This document shows, piece after piece, positions 1 to 19,993 of a stretch of DNA of 19,993 bases. The notes beneath the pieces were generated by a model. It had not been told where the DNA came from, made no database searches, and saw nothing but the letters and a program-made list of their open reading frames with translations. How positions within the stretch are numbered: position 1 is the stretch's first letter; each line of letters starts with the position of its first letter. This DNA comes from a virus. Lineage: Duplodnaviria; Heunggongvirae; Uroviricota; Caudoviricetes. Location: IMG/VR virus record IMGVR_UViG_2671180846_000035; one strand, 5' to 3'. The position numbers and the translations under genes are program-made.

Positions 1-699
1 TTATGATGATGCCGGTGCATTTATCTCCAGCACCAGACTTTCTATCTCAACGCCATACGCTGCATTTTTTGTAACATCCGTCAGCGTCAGCGCATTCAGT
101 CCCAGTGTCAGACTGTCTTTTATAACCTGGAATGCCGGGCCAGCCACTCCATTCAGTTTCGGAGTAACCGTGGCACTGCCGGCGGTGAACACCAGCTCCA
201 GCGTCTGCCAGTCGTTACCGTAATCGCCGAACTCCCCCAGCTTCGTGTTTCCGGCTTTCCTGTGATGCATCAGATTCACTCTGCCGTCAGTGGTCTGAGT
301 GAAGTACGACATCAGGAACGGATTACCGGTACCCGTCATCGCCACACCATCAGGAACGGGAGCATCCGTATACAGATAAATCCCCAGCCCGAACTGATTG
401 TTGGTCAGTGCGCCTGACAGGCGGAACTTACAGGTCAGTCTGCCGCCCTGTGTCAGCAGGGTAATTGCGTCATCCACCGGATGCGTCAGGGACCAGGTTT
501 TATTGCTCTGCTTGGTGATCTTAAATACACCATCTGACAACTGAATTCCGCCATCCTTAATGCTCCAGCCCTGCGCAGCAGCCTCTCCGGCTGCCGGCAG
601 CAGGGAGATTGTGCGAACGGACGTATCTGCAGACGGACCCGATGGCGTGTTGCCGCCGGGCGAGGGTTTGATTTCCGGTGCCTTACCACTGATGAAGGC
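1..699 (-). CDS. C-terminal portion of the NanS-p-like esterase (putative carbohydrate-binding domain); frame is open from the N gap to the stop at 1-3
   Basis: The 179-aa ORF 1..540 starts at a TTG, and the same frame reads without a stop back to the N run at 699 (linker-like ...PEIKPSPGGNTPSGPSADTS...). Size and position fit the C-terminal domain of prophage NanS-p esterases. Joining to the upstream ORF across the gap is inference. Confidence 0.5.
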   Translation of the reverse strand, partial: AFISGKAPEIKPSPGGNTPSGPSADTSVRTISLLPAAGEAAAQGWSIKDGGIQLSDGVFKITKQSNKTWSLTHPVDDAITLLTQGGRLTCKFRLSGALTNNQFGLGIYLYTDAPVPDGVAMTGTGNPFLMSYFTQTTDGRVNLMHHRKAGNTKLGEFGDYGNDWQTLELVFTAGSATVTPKLNGVAGPAFQVIKDSLTLGLNALTLTDVTKNAAYGVEIESLVLEINAPASS

Positions 700-749
700 N
701 NNNNNNNNNNNNNNNNNNNNNNNNNNNNNNNNNNNNNNNNNNNNNNNNN
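700..749. other. Assembly gap (run of 50 N)
   Basis: Run of n characters in the sequence; true length and content unknown, so frame across it is undefined. Confidence 0.95.
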
Positions 750-1912
750 TTCAGAATAGCGGTTGCCATACGATCCGGAATAATGCTCCTGCGCGCCCAT
801 GAACTGAAATGCGTCTGGCGATTTGATGATACCCAGTTTTTGTTCGTTCGGGATGCCGAACCGTAATATCCCTCACTTGCAGCATCCGGATCTTCCGTTG
901 GTGCGTTGGTGGAGGTATTGTTGCCACTACCATCGGTCAGGAATGGCACAAAGAAAACGTTGTCGCTCTCCCTGTTTTTGTACGCCCCGTAAATGGTGTC
1001 GTACTGCGTGCCGTAGGTGTTTTTCCAGTAATACGTCGTGTCACCACAAATCCATGGCACACTTGCCGCTCTGCCTCCATGACACTGCGTGTTAAACTCG
1101 GTAATGTCCGCACGAAACTGTTTCAGCATGGCCGCAAACAGCGGAGGTTGCTGTGAGTACGTAGCGGCGCTCATGTCAAATTCGCCCTGCATCCAGCATA
1201 CGGCCAGCAGCATGTTTTTTGGGTTTTTCTGCAATGCGGCCTTCGTGCGCAAAATCAGGTCCTGATATAAAGGTTTACCCACACCCCAGCGAGCCGAATC
1301 CTGACTGGCTCCTGTGGACTCGCTGAATGTCCCCTCCGCGCCCTGGGTGAATGCCGAACCACCACGACAGCATGGAACCAGTAAAATCCCGGCATTCTGT
1401 GGAATGTAAGGCAACAGGCGTTTGGCAATATGCAAGCCCTGTCCGACACAGCCATACTGCCCTTTGCTCAGGTCTGCATTCGGGTGATTCAGTACGCTCA
1501 TATCCTGAACATCATGCAGGCAGTGATCTGCCGGAATGATGTCGTTAAATGCGCATGCTTTACCACCGGGAGTCACTGTGTTGCGACGGGCCAGTTGCTT
1601 AATGCGTGGGTGGGGCGCATCGTAAGAATCCGGCAGCGGCATTCCCTCACCATATGACATGGCATTGGATTGACCAGCAAGTACCACCACGTAATACCAC
1701 TCCGGCACGCTGCCGTGCTGGGGGGAATCAGGTGAGATGTCTGTAGTGCCATCGGCCACCATTGCCTGCATTAGATACCACGGGGTGCCGGGTTCGTAGG
1801 CAACCCGCGTCTCCCCCTGAAGATGCCACCCTTTCGCAAGATGTTCATTCACCTTTTGAGTCAGTTCAGCCTGTGTCATGGCTGTAATCAGTGCAAAGTT
1901 CTTACTGGTCAT
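750..1912 (-). CDS. nanS: Sialate 9-O-acetylesterase, NanS-p-like (N-terminal DUF1737-like segment plus SGNH hydrolase), 5' portion up to the gap
   Basis: ORF 683..1912 (409 aa). Motifs VLAGQSNAMSYGEG, APHPRIKQLAR, FNDIIP, CCRGGSAFT, CWMQGEFD match my recollection of E. coli NanS/YjhS and prophage NanS-p. ATG at 1912 overlaps the lysC stop (ATGA). Confidence 0.7.
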
Positions 1913-10165: not shown

Positions 10166-10756
10166 TCAGGTGTTATTTTTATCTGTCGTCAGTGGGCTAA
10201 ACCATCCACGATTTACATCGCAGGACTGATGCGTTCTGTCCTCGTGTTTCTCCTGCCACAATGCTTTTCCGCCAGCCTTTATGATGGCTCTTTCAACATC
10301 CCGCTCGTATCGCAAGGGCTGAAATACGTCATTAATGAAATATTCGCTTATGTCCGGAAGCGATACTGCAAAATTATTTGTTTGTTGCGCCGTCCTGCTA
10401 TGCAGCAAAGCGGCATACTTTAATGCGTCCTGTGCTTTCTGGAATTTAAGTGCATAGTCAGTGGCGATTTTTTCCAGTTCAGCGATTCGGTTGTCTTTGG
10501 TTTCCAGCCAATCAAGTAGCGCCAATACTTCAGGATCCCCGACATCCAACACTGTTACGCGTGATTTTTCATAATGTTCGTCGGCAAGAGTTCGGCCAAT
10601 TTTGAAATCTCCATCATCACCATAACCGGAGCAGGCATAAACAACCTGTGCTCCAGATATTCGCTGAATTGACATTTCCTCGCCGCAAATAGGGCATTTC
10701 GGTACTGGCACAGGTGAATAACGTTCACGTAATGCCTGATAGTTGATTTCGCTCAT
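10166..10756 (-). CDS. Ead/Ea22-like family protein with N-terminal zinc-ribbon motif
   Basis: 196 aa; CPICGEEM...YACSGYGDDGDF resembles a Cys4 zinc ribbon; the coiled-coil segment LLDWLETKDNRIAELEKIA resembles Ea22-like proteins; AAGGAG Shine-Dalgarno. Confidence 0.5.
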   Translation of the reverse strand: MSEINYQALRERYSPVPVPKCPICGEEMSIQRISGAQVVYACSGYGDDGDFKIGRTLADEHYEKSRVTVLDVGDPEVLALLDWLETKDNRIAELEKIATDYALKFQKAQDALKYAALLHSRTAQQTNNFAVSLPDISEYFINDVFQPLRYERDVERAIIKAGGKALWQEKHEDRTHQSCDVNRGWFSPLTTDKNNT

Positions 10757-10819: not shown

Positions 10820-11131
10820 TTATTCAGGAAATAACGCCCGGATATTTCCGGCCATCTGACTGGTTATCTGTGCGGTTGATACTGGCTGTGATGCGGGGCG
10901 TTCTGTCCTGGTTTGTGTCACTGATAACGCTTCATCACCAGCCCATGCAGCCAGTCGATAAGCCTCTGCCGGATTCATTTTCAGAAGTGCCAGCCCGGCC
11001 AGAAAAGCCACGCGTTGGCCGCTTTTGCGGGCTTCTGGTGTAAGGCTGTCCAGCCAGGCGCATGCTTCTCCTTCGTTCTTGACGGCGGTGGGCTTCAGAT
11101 AGAAACTTATCCGTCTGGTTGGAGTCGTCAT
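10820..11131 (-). CDS. parR: ParR-like centromere-binding protein (103 aa from the internal ATG)
   Basis: RRISFYLKP...LDSLTPEARKSGQRVAFLAGLALL aligns with my recollection of R1 ParR (RRTIAFKLNP...LDSIPQGERSRLNRAALTAGLAL). The ATG at 11131 has a strong AAGGAG Shine-Dalgarno and sits 4 nt after the parM stop. Confidence 0.65.
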   Translation of the reverse strand: MTTPTRRISFYLKPTAVKNEGEACAWLDSLTPEARKSGQRVAFLAGLALLKMNPAEAYRLAAWAGDEALSVTQTRTERPASQPVSTAQITSQMAGNIRALFPE

Positions 11132-11135
11132 TGGT

Positions 11136-12095
11136 TTACTCCTTGTCCATTGCGTACAGCCCATTAACCAGAGCAAACTGTGGCACCCCGTCCGCGATGA
11201 AAGTCGCATTAACTCCGCAGGCTTCGCGGATAGCGGGTGCCACAATCTCCGCCCCTCCACCGACAACCATCACCCGCCCGTAACCCGAAAAACCCGCCAG
11301 CGCGCGGATCACGCGTTGTTTCAGTGTTTCTTCCTTTTCACGAATAACCGCCATCAGGCTGGCGTAATGCGCGTCATTGTGGATGTGCTGGCGCAGCCAG
11401 GCTTCATCATGGCGATGTTCGATAATGGTATTGGCGATGTGGTGACTGGTGCGCATACCGTTAGTGGCCATCACCGACAGTACGGCATCGGCCATCAGAG
11501 AAACGCCCACGTGTGGATCGCAAAACACCTGGCTGATACCTGCCAGTTGCCCCTGAACCTTTGCCACATCCAGAGTGGTTCCGCCCAAATCCACAATCAG
11601 CAGGGATTCAAACGGACTCATGTCAGCCAGTGCCTTAAAGCCAGCCGGAATGGATTCAGGCATAACCCGTACGTTACGGATAGTGAATGCTTCGCCGTTC
11701 TGGTACTCCACCGGGCGCATGACGTTCGCTTTTTTGCGGTTGATGTTGGCCATGTCCGGCTGTGCGTTTGTATCGAAATACTCGCTCAGTGGCAGGGTGA
11801 CAACCACATCCACTTCCTGTGGTGTGATGCCTGATTTGACCAGCGCGTGATGAATGGCAATTATATTCACATCGCTGTACTGGTATTGCGTGTCGGTCGT
11901 CTGGACAAAGCGATCGCTGACCGGATCAAAACCATAGCGCACGCCATCAAGCATGTAGTTCGCGGGCTGCGTGCCACCGAACGGCGCAGACCATTCCGAC
12001 TTGAAGCTGTTCGGGCTGATGGCGTTGCGGCGTTCGCCGTTCTCAGTCCATGCCAGCTTGATGTTGGTGGAGCCGTCGTCGATACAAATTTTCAT
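11136..12095 (-). CDS. parM: ParM/StbA-like actin-type segregation ATPase
   Basis: 319 aa. Motifs IDDGSTNIKLAW, ISPNSFK, YQYSDVNIIAIHHAL, VMPESIPAGF, LIVDLGGTTLDV, GVSL, FSGY..VMVVGGGAE and LVNGLY are collinear with plasmid R1 ParM as I remember it. Confidence 0.85.
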   Translation of the reverse strand: MKICIDDGSTNIKLAWTENGERRNAISPNSFKSEWSAPFGGTQPANYMLDGVRYGFDPVSDRFVQTTDTQYQYSDVNIIAIHHALVKSGITPQEVDVVVTLPLSEYFDTNAQPDMANINRKKANVMRPVEYQNGEAFTIRNVRVMPESIPAGFKALADMSPFESLLIVDLGGTTLDVAKVQGQLAGISQVFCDPHVGVSLMADAVLSVMATNGMRTSHHIANTIIEHRHDEAWLRQHIHNDAHYASLMAVIREKEETLKQRVIRALAGFSGYGRVMVVGGGAEIVAPAIREACGVNATFIADGVPQFALVNGLYAMDKE

Positions 12096-12099
12096 GTCG

Positions 12100-12230
12100 C
12101 TTTTCCTTGTGTTGATTAATTAATCGGTTACAGGATTTTTAAATCCCGCTTTTGCCTGTTTTGTGCGCGCTTCATATATCGCGGCACGTTTTTTGCTCAT
12201 TTACGGGATTTGTGAGTCCCGTTTCTGTCT
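12100..12230. promoter_or_regulatory. Candidate parMR promoter/centromere-like region (paired imperfect palindromes)
   Basis: Two related 18-bp dyads, cAGGATTTttAAATCCcg (about 12131-12148) and CGGGAtttgtgagTCCCG (about 12204-12221), plus repeated TTTTGCCTGTTTT-like T-rich motifs upstream of parM; partly inside the 3' end of A. Confidence 0.3.
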
Positions 12231-15012
12231 GTTTTTTGTTTCCACTGGTCAGGCTACCCCGCAGCAGGTCTGCTTTGCGGTGGGCGCGTTCAGTGGTTTC
12301 ACTGATTCTCTGTGCGTGCACTGCGTCACGGATGGCGCGCAGCATGTCAGAAAGCACGGTAACGGGGGTTTTCATGGTGTTCTGGTCCTGCTGAAGTGTG
12401 GATGCCAGGTGTGCGGCGGCTTCGGGGTCTGATGCCCCCAGCTGTTCCAGATAGCTGGCGACCGGGTTATGGCGGATCTCCGTGCTGCTTACGCCGTGAT
12501 TACGGCTCAGGCGCTGCCAGAGTTGCGTGATTCGGCTGTCCGGGCGGGTATCTGGTTTGCGTACAATTTCAAATCCCTGCGGTGCAATGATGCTGCCGTC
12601 AACGTACAGACTGCCGCCCCGTAACAGGTGCTGCATCTGCTGTTCACCGATATGCAGGCCGAGAGATTCAGCAGACTCCCGCCATTCTTTAGCGAGTAAC
12701 TCGTGATTATCAGGCAAAGGCCGTGGCTGTTTGCGGCTCTGTGTCCAGTTCTGCATTTCATCACTGCTGTTTTTTGCCTGTTTGTCACGCAGCGAACGCA
12801 TCAGCGCCCGGCGTTCGTGCCGTTTCAGTGAGCGCATCCATTCATTCACGTCAACGCCGTCAGGAAGCTGCGGCCACGGTGCTGGCCTTTCTTCCGGCTG
12901 TTCTGTCCCGTTGTTGTCCGTTTCCTGTACACGGGGACAGTTATTGCCACGAGTCCAAGGGGCGGCAGGGCCGCCCTGAAGGTCAAAACCATTTTCGCGG
13001 GTGCTGTCTTCCGCTTCCGGTTTACGTCTTACCAGCTTCCAGTTATCCGGGTGCGTGCACACACGGGAGGATTCCCCGATGAGTGGTGACCAGATCCCGT
13101 AAATCTGTACGCTCTGTTCGCCGTAATCGTTCAGCTCATCTGCGAGGTCGTAGGCGGTGCGAATCAGGTAGTCTTTGCGTGGAACAAGTACGCCGCCCTG
13201 TTTCTCAATGTAGGTGGCAAAACACCCGGCATCAGCGGCAGCGAGTACCGCATCCATTGCATCATCCTTCAGCCGTTGTGGGCCTTCCGGGTTGCGTGCC
13301 ATCTGGCTGGCAAGGCGGCGGAGTTCACGCCATACCTGACGGGAGGGGATGCCAAAGAACTGGAACTGGCGGACCCGGTGAAGGCGTGCCCAGCCGATGG
13401 CGCGTTCCACGCTCTCGGCCATTGATTTTCCGGTTTCGTGGTCAACGCGTGGCTTGCCCGTTTTCGGGTCGATGCCATCCACGGCGCGGCTGTCCAGGTT
13501 CTTTCCGATGTAGGTGGCGATGTAGCTGGTTGGCGTGCCTTTTGAGCCGTCGACATACTCCACCTTAAAGCGCGGAGTAATATCATTGCCCAGCTCGTGG
13601 CGGTCTTCCTGAATGGCAATATCGCGGGTGTGGGACACAATGGTGTCGATTTCTTCCGGATGAGCAAAGACCATCATATGCCAGTGCACGGTGCCGTCAT
13701 GGTGAGGCTCCACCGTGCGGATGCCATACCAGCGCAGGCCGTCGCGGTTCAGTTTCTTGCGGACCGCCGCAAAAAACGTGTTAACCAGGTAATCGCTGGA
13801 GTCGCGCATGGTGGCCCCGTTCCATTTGGGATTCGGATGACCGTTCTCTGTTGTGGCGTGGTATTTTGACGGGCAGGTGACAGTCAGAAACACCGCTCTG
13901 TCGCCACGGGCTTCGGCCAGAAGTTCCAGCCCCTTCATGGTGGCCATCATTTCTGCCTTACGGTGAATCGGGTTACTTACTCCCGCGTAATACACTGTCT
14001 CGAGATCAATCGTGAACCCGTCTTCGTTTTCCAGCATGAAACTTTTCAGGAAATCGCGTGTTTTCTCGCGCTGTGCGCGAAACTCGCTTAACGCGTCCTG
14101 GCTCAGATAGGGTGATGTTTTTCTGGAAACCAGACAGGCGGCGCGGAGTTGTTCTTCTCTCCACTCGCAACGTAACAGCCACAGTTTGCGTTTCCACCAT
14201 TCCGCACAGGTCAGGCGAAGGATTGCGCCCGGCAGCAGCTCCGTGTCCGGTTCATTCCTCCGGTCTTTGTCTGTTGTCAGAGCGTCATAATGTGGAGGCA
14301 TAGCGTGCAGGTGTAACGCCATGCGGGCCAGCATCTGATACGCCTTCAGCGTTACATCCATGGTCAGCTCGCCATCGGTCGCGCCAAAGCCATCGCAGAG
14401 TTTTTCAAAAGTGCCACTGAACATCGCCGCCGTCATGGTGGCCAGCGTCTGTATCTGGTGTTTGTTGAGCTGCGGCAGGTAAAGCAAATCGTCCAGGCGT
14501 TCGCGTCCGGCAAGGGAGCGATAGCCCGGTGTCAGCCAGCGGCTGTCGGTGCGGTCCAGACGTTCGAATATTTTGCGCAGGGTTCCGCGCGCGTAGCGTT
14601 CAGCCTGCCAGCTCTTTTTGCCTTTCTGACGATCGGCTTCCTGCTTCTTGCGCAGAAAAGAGAGGTGGCGGCTCAGAGGTTCACGCAGATAAACGGGAAG
14701 CACCTTCAGTGTGGCAAAAGCACGGGCCACCGGGTCTTGTTCTGTTGCCTGACGCTTGCTGATGATGCTTTGTGCCAGCTTTTCACGCTGTCCGGCTTCC
14801 TCAAGGGATGCCATGAGTTTTTTACCCACGGTGGATTGTGCGAAAAAGGCTTCTTCCTTCGCTTCCTGTTCTTCCTGTGCCCTTTTGTTTGCCTCAAGGT
14901 AGTAACGGATGGCGCGTTGCAGGTCGGTTTCAGTTTCCTGCCTGCGCTCCGTAAATCTGGCCGGATCAATGGCTGGCCGTGGTTCATTCCAGCTCCATGC
15001 AAACGCACTCAT
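12172..15012 (-). CDS. A: Replication initiation endonuclease (P2 gpA family, rolling-circle HUH type)
   Basis: AWSWNEPR near the N-terminus, VEPHHDGTVHWHMMVFAHP (HUH motif) and YIATYIGKNLD (catalytic Tyr region) match P2 A. ATG at 15012 overlaps the upstream gene stop (ATGA); the track ORF extends to 15039. Confidence 0.9.
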   Translation of the reverse strand: MSAFAWSWNEPRPAIDPARFTERRQETETDLQRAIRYYLEANKRAQEEQEAKEEAFFAQSTVGKKLMASLEEAGQREKLAQSIISKRQATEQDPVARAFATLKVLPVYLREPLSRHLSFLRKKQEADRQKGKKSWQAERYARGTLRKIFERLDRTDSRWLTPGYRSLAGRERLDDLLYLPQLNKHQIQTLATMTAAMFSGTFEKLCDGFGATDGELTMDVTLKAYQMLARMALHLHAMPPHYDALTTDKDRRNEPDTELLPGAILRLTCAEWWKRKLWLLRCEWREEQLRAACLVSRKTSPYLSQDALSEFRAQREKTRDFLKSFMLENEDGFTIDLETVYYAGVSNPIHRKAEMMATMKGLELLAEARGDRAVFLTVTCPSKYHATTENGHPNPKWNGATMRDSSDYLVNTFFAAVRKKLNRDGLRWYGIRTVEPHHDGTVHWHMMVFAHPEEIDTIVSHTRDIAIQEDRHELGNDITPRFKVEYVDGSKGTPTSYIATYIGKNLDSRAVDGIDPKTGKPRVDHETGKSMAESVERAIGWARLHRVRQFQFFGIPSRQVWRELRRLASQMARNPEGPQRLKDDAMDAVLAAADAGCFATYIEKQGGVLVPRKDYLIRTAYDLADELNDYGEQSVQIYGIWSPLIGESSRVCTHPDNWKLVRRKPEAEDSTRENGFDLQGGPAAPWTRGNNCPRVQETDNNGTEQPEERPAPWPQLPDGVDVNEWMRSLKRHERRALMRSLRDKQAKNSSDEMQNWTQSRKQPRPLPDNHELLAKEWRESAESLGLHIGEQQMQHLLRGGSLYVDGSIIAPQGFEIVRKPDTRPDSRITQLWQRLSRNHGVSSTEIRHNPVASYLEQLGASDPEAAAHLASTLQQDQNTMKTPVTVLSDMLRAIRDAVHAQRISETTERAHRKADLLRGSLTSGNKKQTETGLTNPVNEQKTCRDI

Positions 15013-15398
15013 GGCTGGTATCCCGTCACGCGCTGCCACTCCTGTGAGAAGAGGGCGGAAAGGCGGTTAAATTCAGCGGAGTATTCACTCAGCGAGGCAC
15101 ACCCGCCAGCAGTGCGATGCGCCAGCATTGCCGCAAATATGGAGGCCGGGGAGTCGTAATACGCCAGCAGTGATTCGCCGTGTGGTGTCAGGCAGTGCAA
15201 CGCCAGCCCGTGTGGTGTGAAGTCCACGCGGTAGCAGTCGTCTACTGTGAAATAAAGGGTGTCTGCATTCTCCGGTTTTGTGGTGCGTGCTCTGTTGTCA
15301 CGACCACGGATGTAGAGATCAAATAATCCCTGAAGAACGGGAGCCAGACGGGTGTCCTGTGTGCGCACCCATCTTGTGAAGTCATGAGCGTCAATCAT
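15009..15398 (-). CDS. Hypothetical early-operon protein (129 aa)
   Basis: ORF with the right orientation, immediately upstream of A and translationally coupled to it; no family recognised. Confidence 0.5.
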   Translation of the reverse strand: MIDAHDFTRWVRTQDTRLAPVLQGLFDLYIRGRDNRARTTKPENADTLYFTVDDCYRVDFTPHGLALHCLTPHGESLLAYYDSPASIFAAMLAHRTAGGCASLSEYSAEFNRLSALFSQEWQRVTGYQP

Positions 15399-17036: not shown

Positions 17037-17240
17037 TTAGCTGTTAGCCAAAGCGTCTTTTAACATCGCCACAAGGTTTACTTCAGGCTTTTCCATTTTG
17101 GCGCGTTTGGGGCGGATAATAATTCGACCGTCAGCCAACATCTTTTTGCATGTATTAAGAGGGATACCTGTTATCTCTGCATATTTCTGCAGGGATACAT
17201 AGGGGGCATTCACATTGATATTGATGGTTATACCTGACAT
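17037..17240 (-). CDS. Cox-like HTH DNA-binding protein (excisionase/regulator family)
   Basis: 67 aa; APYVSLQKYAEITGIPLNTCKKMLADGRIIIRP resembles the HTH region of P2 Cox as I remember it. Confidence 0.5.
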   Translation of the reverse strand: MSGITININVNAPYVSLQKYAEITGIPLNTCKKMLADGRIIIRPKRAKMEKPEVNLVAMLKDALANS

Positions 17241-17256
17241 CCCACTAGCCTCCTGA

Positions 17257-17463
17257 TCAGGAAGATTTGTTTTGTTCTTTCTGGGTTAGCTCTAGGCCGC
17301 GAAGGAAGATCATGCGCGCCATGTTAGAGGATGAGCGTTGTTCTTTAGCTGCCATTTCATCAATGACGGCTCGCTCCTCGAGGGACAGCCGAAGTGCCAG
17401 TCTTGGACCTGTGGCGGTGTTACGCGGAATGCGTGATCTGGTATCGTGAAGAACTTGTTTCAT
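17257..17463 (-). CDS. Small DNA-binding regulator (possible ribbon-helix-helix), first gene of the early operon
   Basis: 68 aa; the RLALRLSLEERAVIDEMAAKE pattern resembles an RHH beta-strand plus helix; position is Cro/Apl-like, divergent from the repressor. Confidence 0.45.
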   Translation of the reverse strand: MKQVLHDTRSRIPRNTATGPRLALRLSLEERAVIDEMAAKEQRSSSNMARMIFLRGLELTQKEQNKSS

Positions 17464-17538: not shown

Positions 17539-17943
17539 ATGAAAAATGATATTGGTCAGCGGTTGCGTGAGGAAAGGGAAAGATTGGGACTTAGTCAAGT
17601 TGCCATGAGCGACATTGGTGGAGTCAAAAAGCTAACTCAGCTTAGATATGAGAAAGGAGATAGCTTTCCTGATGCTGCGTATTTGGCAGCGCTGTCTCGT
17701 TTTGGCCTTGATGTTCAGTATGTTGTGTTGGGAATTCACTCACCTGAAACTTATAACGATGATGAGCAGGAGTTGATTACTCGCTTTCGAGCAGCTTCGT
17801 TAGATGTGAAAAACGCGGTGATCGGGGCTTTAAAAGGTGCGATCAGTGAAAAGGAAACTCAGCCATCAGGACGTGAGTTAAATATTTCTGGTGGTAATAA
17901 CCGTATCGCTGGTCGTGACTATAACGAAACTAAGGGTAGGTGA
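17539..17943 (+). CDS. Immunity repressor, HTH XRE/Cro-CI family
   Basis: 134 aa; N-terminal HTH (GQRLREERERLGLSQVAMSDIGGVKKLTQLRYEKG); transcribed towards int, opposite to the early operon, as for P2 C / 186 cI. Confidence 0.75.
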   Translation: MKNDIGQRLREERERLGLSQVAMSDIGGVKKLTQLRYEKGDSFPDAAYLAALSRFGLDVQYVVLGIHSPETYNDDEQELITRFRAASLDVKNAVIGALKGAISEKETQPSGRELNISGGNNRIAGRDYNETKGR

Positions 17944-17958
17944 TAGTAGGGAGGTGAC

Positions 17959-18609
17959 ATGGCCGTCAACTCAAACGGTTCAAACAATCGCGTTGCTGGG
18001 CGTGATTTTCACGAAAAGAATATTCAGATAGAGCGATATGATGGTTCTCATACCGTCAATATCGCAATCCCTTCGAATAATGATGATGACGATCGCCCTT
18101 TGCTTAAGGCTCAGCGTAAGGAGCTAAATAGCTTGGTTGCTGCTATTGCAGAAGCTAGCAATACTGAAGCGTTTATTATTTGGCAAAAAGTACATGCGGA
18201 GATTGGTGTAGCTGGTATTGATGATATGACAGTAAATCAATATAAAACAGCGGAGAGTTTTCTGCATGCAATGCTTGAGCGATGTAAAGATCATGATGCC
18301 TGTAAGACTCTTGTAAGTTTATTACTACGTAACAGTGAAGACTGTGGACTTCGACAAAAACTTCTGCGGTATTGCCATATCAATTTCGGTACAGGACGTT
18401 TAAACGATCTTACTCGTTCTCAGTTACAGTCTGCATTGTCGTGGTTAGAGCAACAATCGGCATCAAGTCACACAGAGAGTTCGGCCTTACCAGAAGTTCG
18501 ACTTCGTGCTTCAGAATTAATCCGACTTTATCCAAAAGAAATAATATTCTTTATCTGCGTAGGGGTTTTGGTAGGCGGTGCCATTTCTAGGGTGTTTTTT
18601 AATTTGTAA
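17959..18609 (+). CDS. Tail-anchored membrane protein of unknown function (216 aa)
   Basis: C-terminal hydrophobic segment IIFFICVGVLVGGAISRVFF; GGGAGG Shine-Dalgarno; AT-rich relative to the structural genes; inserted between repressor and int. Confidence 0.6.
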   Translation: MAVNSNGSNNRVAGRDFHEKNIQIERYDGSHTVNIAIPSNNDDDDRPLLKAQRKELNSLVAAIAEASNTEAFIIWQKVHAEIGVAGIDDMTVNQYKTAESFLHAMLERCKDHDACKTLVSLLLRNSEDCGLRQKLLRYCHINFGTGRLNDLTRSQLQSALSWLEQQSASSHTESSALPEVRLRASELIRLYPKEIIFFICVGVLVGGAISRVFFNL

Positions 18610-18638: not shown

Positions 18639-18986
18639 ATGAAAGTAAAAAAGGTTCAACTATTAGTTACTTTTTTATCTATGTTTTCTTTTTCCGCCGT
18701 CGCAATGCCTTTTAAAACTATTGAACGTGAGAGTTTCAATGGGGTATGGCCATTTAATACTGATGAGGTTCAATTACAGTGTCTTGATGGTAATCCTTAT
18801 GTGATGAATTTTGACGATAATAAGTTATATGCGCTTACAGGTTTAGCTCGAATAAAAGGTAAAACATTTGGTGCGTTACCGTTAGATAACAATAATCCAT
18901 TTTGGCTAGATAATGATGCCGCCCCAGGGTTAAAAAAGAGTCTGGGGGATGTCACTAAGGCTGCATTTGATTTATGTGATAAGTAA
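18639..18986 (+). CDS. Small secreted/periplasmic protein with signal peptide (115 aa)
   Basis: N-terminal signal peptide MKVKKVQLLVTFLSMFSFSAVA; two Cys in the mature part; GAGG Shine-Dalgarno; AT-rich. Confidence 0.6.
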   Translation: MKVKKVQLLVTFLSMFSFSAVAMPFKTIERESFNGVWPFNTDEVQLQCLDGNPYVMNFDDNKLYALTGLARIKGKTFGALPLDNNNPFWLDNDAAPGLKKSLGDVTKAAFDLCDK

Positions 18987-18991
18987 CTAAA

Positions 18992-19993
18992 ATGTCGGTT
19001 CGTAAGATTCCATCAGGTAAATGGCTTTGCGAATGTTATCCCTACGGGGCATCGGGAAAACGCATTCGTAAACAGTTTGCGACAAAAAGTGAGGCGCTCT
19101 CTTATGAGCGCCGTTTAATGAATAGTAGAGTTGGAGACGAGTTTCAAGATGGTTCTGGTCCTCGTCTTTCTGAGTTGATTGCTCGTTGGTTTGAGATGTA
19201 CGGTAAAACCTTGTCCTCTGGTGCAGAGCGCAAAGTCAAACTTGAGGCGATTTGTTCCAGGCTGGGGGATCCATTTGCTTCTCAGTTTGACAAAAATATG
19301 TTTGCTACTTATCGGGAAAGAAGGCTATCAGGAGAATGGAATCCCAAGGGGAAGAAAAAACTTAGTGAAGCAACCGTTAATCGCGAGCAGTCATATCTAC
19401 ATGCTGTTTTTGCCGAACTGAAGCGCCTTGGGGAGTGGTCTGGTGAAAACCCCCTGACTGGTATTCGCAAGTTTCGTGAGGAAGAAAAGGAACTGGCGTT
19501 TCTGTATGTAGATGAGATTGAACGCCTTCTGATTGCGTGTGATGAGTCACGGAATAAAGATTTGGGGGTTGTTGTCCGTATTGGGCTTGCGACTGGTGCT
19601 CGGTGGAGTGAAGCTGAAGGATTAAAGCAATCTCAAGTACTGCCCGGTCGAATCACATTTGTTAAAACTAAAGGAAAGAAGAACCGCACTGTACCGATTT
19701 CACCTCAATTGCAGGCTATGCTTCCTCAAAAACGAGGAGCGCTATTTTCACCATGTTATGAGGCTTTTGACGCTGCAATTAAGAGAGCGAAGATCGAGCT
19801 TCCTGATGGGCAATTAACTCATGTGCTACGTCACACGTTTGCCAGTCATTTTATGATGCGGGGCGGAAATATTCTTGTGTTGCAAAAAATACTGGGGCAT
19901 AGCGATATAAAAATGACTATGCGTTATGCGCATTTTGCTCCAGGTCATTTAGAGGCTGCTGTTGAATTGAACCCTTTTGACAATAGAGGGTAA
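18992..19993 (+). CDS. int: Tyrosine integrase, P2 Int family
   Basis: 333 aa; GKRIRKQF..KSEA, ..GARWSEAEGLK.., RITFVKTKGKKNRTVPIS, HVLRHTFASHFMMRGGNILVLQKILGH and MTMRYAHFAP match my recollection of P2 Int, including the catalytic R..HxxR..Y. Stop codon is at the window end. Confidence 0.9.
   Translation: MSVRKIPSGKWLCECYPYGASGKRIRKQFATKSEALSYERRLMNSRVGDEFQDGSGPRLSELIARWFEMYGKTLSSGAERKVKLEAICSRLGDPFASQFDKNMFATYRERRLSGEWNPKGKKKLSEATVNREQSYLHAVFAELKRLGEWSGENPLTGIRKFREEEKELAFLYVDEIERLLIACDESRNKDLGVVVRIGLATGARWSEAEGLKQSQVLPGRITFVKTKGKKNRTVPISPQLQAMLPQKRGALFSPCYEAFDAAIKRAKIELPDGQLTHVLRHTFASHFMMRGGNILVLQKILGHSDIKMTMRYAHFAPGHLEAAVELNPFDNRG

What the first reader, a model, noticed from the sequence alone, without database searches (positions are those of the whole stretch)
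17880..18040. Conserved 16-residue motif shared by the repressor C-terminus and the N-terminus of the next gene, separated by three in-frame stops
The repressor ends ...NISGGNNRIAGRDYNETKGR and the downstream protein begins MAVNSNGSNNRVAGRDFHE.... The two genes are in the same frame, separated by TGA-TAG-TAG and a Shine-Dalgarno. The motif is conserved at the peptide level while the codons differ synonymously, which argues for selection on the peptide in both proteins. It could be a shared interaction or degradation tag, or the scar of a module-swapping junction.
Basis: seen in the sequence. Interest (0 to 1): 0.55.

Follow-up and report, generated by a model that had tools for sequence, protein, structure and literature searches.

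The report
Repressor tail matches membrane partner's start
The prophage repressor ends with a short peptide that is repeated at the start of the membrane-anchored protein encoded next to it, and the two copies change together across many unrelated phages, which suggests that they bind each other and so link the lysis-lysogeny switch to the membrane.

Summary
The repressor (17539-17943) ends LNISGGNNRIAGRDYNE and the next protein (17959-18609) begins VNSNGSNNRVAGRDFHE. This match was equalled in 1 of 20,000 shuffles.

It is not a local oddity. Both copies are conserved family-wide. The pairing recurs in P2-like and Mu-like prophages. Where the motif differs between phages, both copies differ together: 27 non-redundant loci gave a mean cognate score of 36.9 against 22.3±1.5 for permuted partners, with 0 of 200,000 permutations as high. 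Only 41% of identical residues share a codon, so selection acts on the peptide, not the DNA.

The downstream proteins are always membrane proteins. Most carry a Flk_N domain, but some are unrelated. Repressor homologues without the tail have no matching neighbour. AlphaFold gives no confident structure for either copy.

The gene-pair layout and the G/N/Q-rich composition resemble bacterial amyloid signalling motifs (BASS). However, profiles I built from a subset of published BASS1 and BASS2 sequences do not recognise these motifs.

My best reading is a cognate pairing motif that couples the repressor to a co-expressed membrane partner. Amyloid-like templating is possible. Nothing here has been tested experimentally. 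The shared frame and the three stop codons are incidental.

The parts
17539..17943 (+). Prophage repressor, XRE-type HTH, 134 aa. It has an HTH domain, two helices (to residue 103), a variable spacer and a conserved C-terminal tail.
   Evidence: phrog_8 E 2.5e-14. Pfam HTH_31 8.4e-05, which is below the gathering score. AF2 pLDDT is 80-94 for residues 1-103 and about 50 for residues 104-134. The gene lies divergent from Arc-like and Cox-like genes and upstream of the integrase.
17878..17928 (+). Repressor-side motif, residues 114-130, LNISGGNNRIAGRDYNE.
   Evidence: Local alignment. It is conserved as INVSG.GNR[VI]AGRD[YF][NH]E in homologues. Mean pairwise identity is 0.73, against 0.69 for the HTH domain and 0.40 for the spacer.
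17941..17958 (+). Junction: TGA TAG TAG (17941-17949), Shine-Dalgarno GGAGGT (17950-17955), then a GAC spacer.
   Evidence: Read directly from the sequence. The arrangement is not conserved in related loci.
17959..18609 (+). Partner protein, 216 aa. It has an N-terminal motif, a cytoplasmic Flk_N helical domain and a C-terminal transmembrane anchor.
   Evidence: phrog_5825 E 3.7e-102. PF27202 Flk_N from precomputed hits. NCBIfam Flk E 8.9e-16 over residues 37-166, far below the equivalog cut-off. AF2 model. RefSeq calls it 'membrane protein'.
17965..18015 (+). Partner-side motif, residues 3-19, VNSNGSNNRVAGRDFHE. The conserved N-terminal segment continues to about residue 39 (18075).
   Evidence: G7, N10, R11, D16 and E19 are invariant in 68 homologues. 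AF2 pLDDT is 44-52.
18091..18474 (+). Flk_N helical domain of the partner (about residues 45-172).
18508..18603 (+). C-terminal transmembrane helix of the partner (residues 184-215).
   Evidence: AF2 places helices at 184-190 and 192-215. The C-termini of homologues are hydrophobic.
18639..18986 (+). DUF2511 lipoprotein-like gene in the same operon. This position is variable in other phages.
   Evidence: Pfam DUF2511 2.3e-06 and phrog_2950. Unrelated genes occupy this position in L011, L013 and L015.
18992..19993 (+). P2-type tyrosine integrase.
   Evidence: Int_N 5.2e-32 and Phage_integrase 2.4e-22.
17037..17463 (-). Divergent early genes: Arc-like RHH (17257-17463) and Cox-like (17037-17240).
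   Evidence: phrog_3431 9.8e-29 and phrog_575 1.2e-27.

Best explanation
The repressor tail and the N-terminus of the next protein are cognate copies of one short pairing motif. Through it the soluble prophage repressor associates directly with a co-transcribed, membrane-anchored partner.

Shown here: the two genes form a conserved pair in the lysogenic operon of P2-like and Mu-like prophages. Both motif copies sit in terminal segments with no confident predicted structure as monomers. They are conserved at the peptide level and change together from phage to phage. The partner is always a membrane protein, whatever its other domains.

Inferred: the motifs bind each other, probably by beta-strand pairing. 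This binding lets the membrane partner tether, sequester or aggregate the repressor. In that way a membrane or envelope cue could feed into maintenance of lysogeny or into induction, independently of RecA-mediated cleavage.

The same architecture would also fit a SinR/SinI-type arrangement, in which the partner's copy competes with tail-mediated self-association of the repressor. Whether the assembly is a simple heteromer or an amyloid-like templated one is open.
For: 1. The match is significant: score 62, equalled in 1 of 20,000 shuffles.

2. The partner-side motif is present in all 120 listed homologues, and G7, N10, R11, D16 and E19 are invariant. The repressor-side motif is conserved across Enterobacterales and is at least as conserved as the HTH domain (0.73 against 0.69; the spacer is 0.40).

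3. All 10 genome loci with the partner gene have the tailed repressor immediately upstream. Three of them carry different HTH domains on the same tail.

4. Distant repressor homologues in Mu-like prophages (rve transposase, AAA ATPase, holin and SLT) are also followed by a Flk_N membrane protein. There the motif is different but again shared. Pectobacterium has QIFNGDISGQFAGNQIIN / QEFNGTAQGQFSSRDIIN. Pseudomonas has QQFNGPVGTVTSGDVVN / QQFHDRVHQVAAGDIKN.

5. Permutation tests support co-variation. With 14 non-redundant pairs the cognate mean was 42.4 against 26.8 +/- 2.45, with 0 of 100,000 permutations as high. With 27 pairs, including tail-less controls, it was 36.9 against 22.3 +/- 1.49, z = 9.7, 0 of 200,000. 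Divergence after a single duplication would make cognate and non-cognate pairs equally similar, so this excess requires co-evolution or gene conversion.

6. Only 58 of 141 identical aligned residues (41%) use the same codon, and nucleotide identity is 57%. This argues against recent gene conversion.

7. The matched motif also occurs when the partner lacks Flk_N, for example L173 VTQHINSSGGQVAGRNIIN / VTQEINRNDGQVAGRDINN, and L098, L099, L100, L228, L313. All of these partners have transmembrane segments.

8. Tail-less repressor homologues have no matching neighbour.

9. Chromosomal Flk proteins lack the motif: 0 of 27 have it, against 74 of 103 short phage-type Flk_N proteins that carry the core.

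10. AF2 gives pLDDT of about 45-52 for both motif segments, beside confident domains.
Against: No interaction has been measured or modelled.

Some tailed loci score poorly (L149, L151, L223, L233, L248). Part of this comes from miscalled starts or ORFs.

A phage-specific third factor that recognises both copies would produce the same co-variation.

The direction of control (sequestration, stabilisation or membrane tethering) and the signal involved are unknown.

The P2-like partners are tail-anchored and have no periplasmic domain, so what they would sense is unclear.
Confidence: 0.55

Rival explanations
1. The motif pair is an amyloid signalling motif of the BASS / HET-s kind. Clustering of the membrane partner would convert its N-terminal motif to a cross-beta fold. 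That fold would template the repressor tails into insoluble assemblies, switching the repressor off and inducing the prophage. This is a specific version of the best explanation rather than a contradiction of it.
For: The genomic signature is the one used to discover BASS motifs: a shared motif of about 15-25 aa at the C-terminus of one protein and the N-terminus of the product of the adjacent, collinear, closely spaced or overlapping gene (here the gaps are -4 to +33 nt).

The amino-acid enrichment of the motif (G 2.15, N 2.8, Q 2.5, I/V 1.5; K and L 0.15; P 0.35) correlates with BASS-all at r = 0.92, BASS2 at 0.87 and BASS3 at 0.86. Against disordered proteins the correlation is -0.16.

The AGRD core is also the core of BASS1, ASGxGRVYQAGRDQHITER. 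One variant, L228, has a RHIM-like IQIG core.

Bab/Agp shows that such signalling works in E. coli. Inactivation of repressors by aggregation has precedents in RstC/RstR and Qtip/cI.
Against: HMMs that I built from a subset of published BASS1 and BASS2 pairs score these motifs only weakly. The maximum was 6.1 bits for BASS1 and the median about 1 bit. Only 6-10% of the motifs exceed the 99th percentile of composition-matched shuffles.

The Enterobacterales variant is rich in charged residues (R, R, D, E, K, K).

Neither protein is an NLR or a pore-forming effector.

No fibril, ThT or prion data exist. AF2 predicts no beta structure for the monomers.

The SwissProt background used for the enrichment calculation was taken from memory.
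Confidence: 0.25
2. Both copies are independent recognition sites for a third factor, such as a protease, chaperone, adaptor or phage-encoded antirepressor. That factor would handle the repressor and the membrane protein alike, for example as a shared degron.
For: Terminal, unstructured, conserved peptides are typical degrons or adaptor sites. The repressor tails end in a Lys/Arg-rich stretch that the partner copy lacks, so the two copies are not fully equivalent.
Against: Different motif pairs coexist in phages of one host genus (Gilliamella L013, L099, L100). A host factor would therefore not explain pair-specific co-variation. No third gene is conserved in the module, and the gene after the partner differs between loci. 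N-terminal and C-terminal degrons are normally read by different recognition sites.
Confidence: 0.12
3. The similarity has no function. It would be a relic of a duplication or of a recombination junction between modules, kept alike by occasional gene conversion.
For: Recombination clearly occurs inside the repressor gene, because different HTH domains are joined to the same tail. The two copies lie only about 50-90 nt apart, which would allow conversion.
Against: The motif is as conserved as the DNA-binding domain, while the adjacent spacer is free to vary. It persists from P2-like to Mu-like phages and with non-homologous partner bodies. Codon identity at identical residues is only 41% and nucleotide identity 57%. 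Tail-less repressors lack a matching neighbour.
Confidence: 0.05

Closest known systems
Bacterial amyloid signalling sequences (BASS1-11): Bell/NLR gene pairs and Bab/Agp of E. coli, with the fungal HET-S/NWD2 pair
   Same: A short motif is shared between the C-terminus of one protein and the N-terminus of the protein from the adjacent, collinear, nearly abutting gene. The two copies match pair by pair. The composition is rich in G, N, Q and hydrophobic residues and poor in K, L and P. The AGRD core resembles BASS1. The motifs are unstructured in monomer predictions.
   Different: The carriers here are a DNA-binding prophage repressor and a membrane protein, not a pore-forming effector and an NLR or TGP sensor. 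The pair sits in the lysogeny switch, not in a defence island. HMMs built here from a subset of BASS1 and BASS2 sequences do not recognise the motifs. Amyloid formation is untested.
SinR/SinI of Bacillus subtilis (from established knowledge; not tested here)
   Same: An HTH repressor and the product of the neighbouring gene share a homologous short oligomerisation element. Through it the neighbour binds the repressor and antagonises it.
   Different: The Sin element is a helical hook, SinI is small and soluble, and the gene order and context differ. Here the element is G/N/Q-rich, and the neighbour is membrane-anchored and co-transcribed downstream.
Antirepressors that sequester or aggregate repressors: RstC/RstR (CTXphi) and Qtip/cI (VP882)
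   Same: A prophage repressor is inactivated by relocalisation or insolubility rather than by cleavage. The repressor here has a weak RstR-family hit in its HTH region (4.2e-06).
   Different: Those antirepressors are small soluble proteins made on induction. They share no motif with the repressor, and Qtip binds the N-terminal DNA-binding domain. Here the partner is made together with the repressor and matches its C-terminal tail.
Flk (Fluke), the flagellar secretion-switch regulator of Salmonella and E. coli
   Same: It has a homologous cytoplasmic Flk_N domain and a C-terminal membrane anchor.
   Different: Flk is about 330 aa with a Pro-rich N-terminus and lacks the motif (0 of 27 clusters). 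It is chromosomal and is not paired with a repressor. The NCBIfam score here is 58 bits against a cut-off of 353.
Lambda cI-rexA-rexB operon (from established knowledge; not tested here)
   Same: Accessory genes, including one for a membrane protein, are co-transcribed with the repressor in lysogens and influence the switch.
   Different: There is no sequence relationship and no motif shared with cI.

Membership tests
Amyloid signalling motif gene pairs (BASS / HET-s type) | The same short motif lies at the C-terminus of one protein and at the N-terminus of the protein encoded by the adjacent gene. | tested here: met
   Permutation tests.
Amyloid signalling motif gene pairs (BASS / HET-s type) | The genes are collinear, with a very short intergenic distance or an overlap. 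| tested here: met
   Gaps are -4 to +33 nt in matched pairs.
Amyloid signalling motif gene pairs (BASS / HET-s type) | Composition typical of these motifs: G, N, Q, V and I enriched; K, L, P and E depleted. | tested here: met
   r = 0.92 with BASS-all and -0.16 with disordered proteins (using Table S3). The background frequencies were taken from memory.
Amyloid signalling motif gene pairs (BASS / HET-s type) | Recognised by a profile of a described BASS family. | tested here: not met
   HMMs built here from a subset of Table S2 rows gave a maximum of 6.1 bits for BASS1 and a median of about 1 bit for BASS2. Only 6-10% of motifs exceed the 99th percentile of shuffles. BASS3-11 were not tested.
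Amyloid signalling motif gene pairs (BASS / HET-s type) | The carriers are an NLR/STAND-type or TGP sensor and a cell-death or immune effector. | tested here: not met
   The carriers are an XRE repressor and a Flk_N or other membrane protein.
Amyloid signalling motif gene pairs (BASS / HET-s type) | The motif forms amyloid fibrils and templates its partner. | not testable with these tools
   This needs peptides, ThT staining, electron microscopy or solid-state NMR, or in-cell foci assays.
XRE-type prophage repressor | An HTH_3 / HTH_31 DNA-binding domain. | tested here: inconclusive
   Pfam HTH_31 scores 23.2 bits, below the cut-off of 27, and HTH_3 scores 19.1, below 23. However, phrog_8 gives E 2.5e-14 and AF2 predicts a confident five-helix N-terminal domain.
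XRE-type prophage repressor | Position in the immunity region, divergent from the early lytic operon and on the same strand as the integrase (P2 type). | tested here: met
   In Mu-like prophages the gene lies divergent from the Ner-like and transposase operon.
Flk (NCBIfam NF007987 equivalog) | Full-length match above the curated cut-off, about 330 aa, Pro-rich N-terminus. | tested here: not met
   58.1 bits against a cut-off of 353, covering residues 37-166 only. The protein is 216 aa, and host Flk clusters form a separate group.
Flk_N domain proteins (PF27202) | A Flk_N domain followed by a C-terminal membrane anchor. | tested here: met
   Precomputed PF27202 hits, the AF2 model and the profile search. 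PF27202 is absent from the local Pfam copy, so it was not rescored here.

The most novel reading that the evidence does not exclude
Temperate phages of Proteobacteria (P2-like and Mu-like) may control their repressor through a prion-like, amyloid-templating motif. In this reading a membrane-embedded sensor converts the matching C-terminal tail of the repressor into an insoluble cross-beta assembly. That would be a new, RecA-independent induction switch. It would also be the first use of amyloid signalling outside immune cell-death pathways, acting on a transcription factor.
Probability: 0.25. Interest if true: 0.9.

Novelty: new variant of a known kind. Interest (0 to 1): 0.78.

Why it matters
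How P2-like and many Mu-like prophages leave lysogeny is poorly understood, because their short repressors have no autocleavage domain. A cognate motif that ties the repressor to a co-expressed membrane protein offers a concrete, testable route for SOS-independent control.

It would also extend the logic of matched terminal motifs on neighbouring genes from immune cell-death systems to gene regulation by viruses. That logic is known so far only for NLR/Bell, Bab/Agp and HET-S/NWD2 amyloid signalling.

The element is common. This locus is present in 525 of 5,426 complete E. coli genomes, including many O157:H7 strains. Experiments could therefore be done in standard strains.

Tried and rejected
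- Read-through or a fusion protein. Three consecutive stops lie between the genes. The frame relation varies (0 or 2) and the genes overlap in other loci. No fused HTH+Flk_N protein appeared among the homologues.
- A DNA-level repeat, such as an operator or recombination site. The core is only 27/39 identical with no long exact run. Across loci nucleotide identity is 57% and codon identity 41%.
- Co-folding the two proteins through the in-frame translation of 17539-18606.
- Membership of BASS1 or BASS2 by profile. Scores were weak.
- Pfam annotation of the non-Flk partners and of the periplasmic Cys-containing C-terminal domain. Nothing was significant.
- Literature searches for a prior description (amyloid signalling with prophage, repressor, HTH or XRE; Flk-like or PF27202). 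Nothing relevant was found. LfsT is an unrelated 97-aa regulator.
- P0239 could not be located on any contig.
- The genome-contig scan gave only 10 loci, so the diversity came from IMG/VR scans.

Full report
**1. The observation**

The right end of the window is the lysogeny module of a P2-like prophage. It contains these genes:
- Cox-like, 17037-17240 (-)
- Arc-like RHH, 17257-17463 (-)
- an XRE-type repressor, 17539-17943 (+, 134 aa)
- a 216-aa protein, 17959-18609 (+)
- a DUF2511 protein, 18639-18986 (+)
- a P2-type integrase, 18992-19993 (+)

The region is 97.9% identical to Escherichia phage 520873. It is present in 525 of 5,426 complete E. coli genomes, next to yecA/tyrP in one of them.

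The repressor ends ...LNISGGNNRIAGRDYNETKGR. Then come TGA TAG TAG, GGAGGT and ATG. The next protein starts MAVNSNGSNNRVAGRDFHE, in the same frame. The local alignment scores 62. Only 1 of 20,000 shuffled pairs reached that score. Four of the nine identical core residues use different codons.

**2. It is a family-wide feature, not a local accident**

All 120 listed homologues of the downstream protein begin M.VNS.G..NR.[AS]GRD[FY].EN.IQI..[FY]DG.HT.NIAIPS. G7, N10, R11, D16 and E19 are invariant in a 68-sequence alignment.

Repressor homologues from Escherichia, Klebsiella, Salmonella, Yersinia, Serratia, Dickeya, Pectobacterium and others end INVSG.GNR[VI]AGRD[YF][NH]ENKK. Among 49 such repressors the motif has a mean pairwise identity of 0.73. 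That is higher than the HTH domain (0.69) and the C-terminal helices (0.61). The spacer just before the motif is free to vary (0.40).

In 10 of 10 genome loci that encode the downstream protein, the tailed repressor lies immediately upstream (7-20 nt). Three of these loci have a clearly different HTH domain joined to the same tail. The relative frame is 0 or 2, so the shared frame and triple stop of the window are incidental.

**3. Co-variation**

More distant repressor homologues lie in Mu-like transposable prophages. These carry an rve transposase and an AAA ATPase on the divergent strand, with holin and SLT genes downstream. There too the repressor is followed by a Flk_N protein.

In these phages the tail motif is different, and the N-terminus of the next protein differs in the same way:

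| Locus | Repressor tail | Next protein N-terminus |
|---|---|---|
| Pectobacterium | QIFNGDISGQFAGNQIIN | QEFNGTAQGQFSSRDIIN |
| Gilliamella | GEGQIAGGNIY | AEQIAGRDIY |
| Pseudomonas | QQFNGPVGTVTSGDVVN | QQFHDRVHQVAAGDIKN |

IMG/VR scans added many more variants:

| Locus | Repressor tail | Next protein N-terminus |
|---|---|---|
| L173 | VTQHINSSGGQVAGRNIIN | VTQEINRNDGQVAGRDINN |
| L135 | QVFHGAVSGGVAARDIINN | QEFQGNVDGGVAGRDIVNQ |
| L321 | QTFHGSVGQSVAGNITN | QDFHGGVGQVAGGDITN |
| L228 | VVGDNAIQIGNVAG | VVGDEAIQIGQLQG |
| L313 | IKGDNNVQI | IQGNNNTQV |

I tested this formally by permuting partners. With 14 non-redundant pairs the mean cognate score was 42.4, against 26.8 +/- 2.45, and 0 of 100,000 permutations reached it. 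With 27 non-redundant pairs, including tail-less controls and some miscalled ORFs, it was 36.9 against 22.3 +/- 1.49 (z = 9.7; 0 of 200,000).

If one ancient duplication had simply diverged, a tail would be no more similar to its own partner than to any other partner. The excess therefore requires co-evolution or gene conversion. Across 15 non-redundant loci only 58 of 141 identical residues share a codon, and nucleotide identity is 57%. The likeness is therefore maintained at the peptide level.

**4. What the partners are**

The window's partner has three parts:
- residues 1-40, with no confident structure (pLDDT 44-52)
- a confident helical Flk_N domain, residues 45-172
- a C-terminal transmembrane helix

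A profile search of 1.84 billion representative proteins found only 140 Flk_N clusters. Twenty-seven are host Flk (median 336 aa, Pro-rich N-terminus), and none of those has the motif. The other 103 are short (median 210 aa), and most begin with a motif of this kind.

The matched motif is also found on partners that have no Flk_N domain. These include a 118-aa zinc-ribbon protein, 136-152-aa two-transmembrane proteins and 269-341-aa coiled-coil proteins. All partners have transmembrane segments. The longer ones add a small Cys-containing periplasmic domain.

Repressor homologues that stop after the C-terminal helices, and so have no tail, are followed by unrelated genes with no match.

The repressor model shows a confident HTH domain plus two helices up to residue 103, followed by an unstructured tail.

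**5. Mechanism**

What is shown is a conserved two-gene unit in which terminal, unstructured, peptide-level-conserved motifs co-vary. One copy is on a DNA-binding repressor and the other on a membrane protein made from the same transcript.

The simplest inference is that the two copies bind each other. The membrane protein would then tether, sequester or aggregate the repressor, or compete with tail-mediated self-association of the repressor as SinI does with SinR. This would give these cleavage-domain-less repressors a route for control. I put this at about 0.55.

A shared third factor is less likely. Different motif pairs coexist in one host genus, and no third gene is conserved in the module. 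A functionless scar is unlikely.

**6. Comparison with known systems**

The layout is the one by which amyloid signalling motifs were discovered: a C-terminal motif on one protein and an N-terminal copy on the product of the adjacent, collinear, nearly abutting gene. Bab/Agp shows that this works in E. coli.

The motif's amino-acid enrichment correlates with BASS motifs overall at r = 0.92, and at -0.16 with disordered proteins. The AGRD core recalls BASS1, ASGxGRVYQAGRDQHITER.

Against this, HMMs that I built from a subset of published BASS1 and BASS2 sequences recognise these motifs only marginally. The carrier proteins are of a different kind, and no amyloid property has been tested. I therefore do not file this as a BASS family member. 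I say that it is built like one and may work like one (about 0.25).

Inactivation of repressors by aggregation has precedents in RstC/RstR and Qtip/cI.

I found no paper that links amyloid signalling, or any matched terminal motif, to a prophage repressor. The searchable library is incomplete.

**7. Verdict**

The shared-interaction reading is supported. The degradation-tag and scar readings are not favoured. The in-frame stops are irrelevant.

This is a new variant of a known kind, matched-motif gene pairs, in an unexpected place: the lysogeny switch. It is directly testable in E. coli.

Noticed in passing
window 17257-17463 (-): The Arc-like ribbon-helix-helix ORF (phrog_3431, E 9.8e-29) is not annotated in RefSeq NZ_CP037943.1. 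That record instead calls a 45-aa hypothetical ORF on the opposite strand (about window 17312-17449 +). The phage record NC_049344 does list an Arc-like repressor.
   Followed up: partly
window 10820-12095 (-): This P2-like prophage carries a plasmid-type segregation pair next to the GpA replication gene (12172-15039). The pair is ParM (11136-12095; StbA_N 2.6e-81) and Plasmid_stab_B (10820-11131; 3e-23). An Ead/Ea22-like gene lies at 10166-10756.
   Followed up: partly
window 683-1912 (-): A 409-aa protein with DUF1737 and a SASA sialate-O-acetylesterase-like domain lies among the lysis and tail genes. The RefSeq gene at this position is longer (about 626 aa) and is annotated there as a DUF6645 protein.
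   Followed up: no
[not shown]
   Followed up: no
L135, L146, L149, L151, L158, L165 (C-terminal about 45 aa of the partner proteins): The longer partner proteins have, after the transmembrane segment, a small periplasmic domain with two Cys residues (C.F.G..[YF]S.G[ST]...C...W). It has no Pfam match and could be a sensing domain.
   Followed up: partly
L038 (IMGVR_UViG_2778261154_000006): There are two repressor genes in tandem. The first also ends in a tail (GKGHRIAGRDYNETKG). It is followed by a second, window-type repressor and then by the partner gene.
   Followed up: no
L228 (IMGVR_UViG_3300034682_000444): One motif variant has an IQIG core like that of RHIM / BASS3 motifs: the repressor has VVGDNAIQIGNVAG and the next protein has VVGDEAIQIGQLQG.
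   Followed up: no
L177 3357-4132 (186-like E. coli prophage with a tail-less repressor): The tail-less repressor homologue is followed by a 117-aa Cys-rich protein and a 140-aa C-terminally anchored coiled-coil protein. A membrane-anchored gene is thus still present in the operon, even without a matched motif.
   Followed up: no
H3, NZ_AP042519.1 (E. coli OkiPb01684): In one genome the otherwise identical locus is interrupted by an IS1A element; the match falls in two pieces.
   Followed up: no
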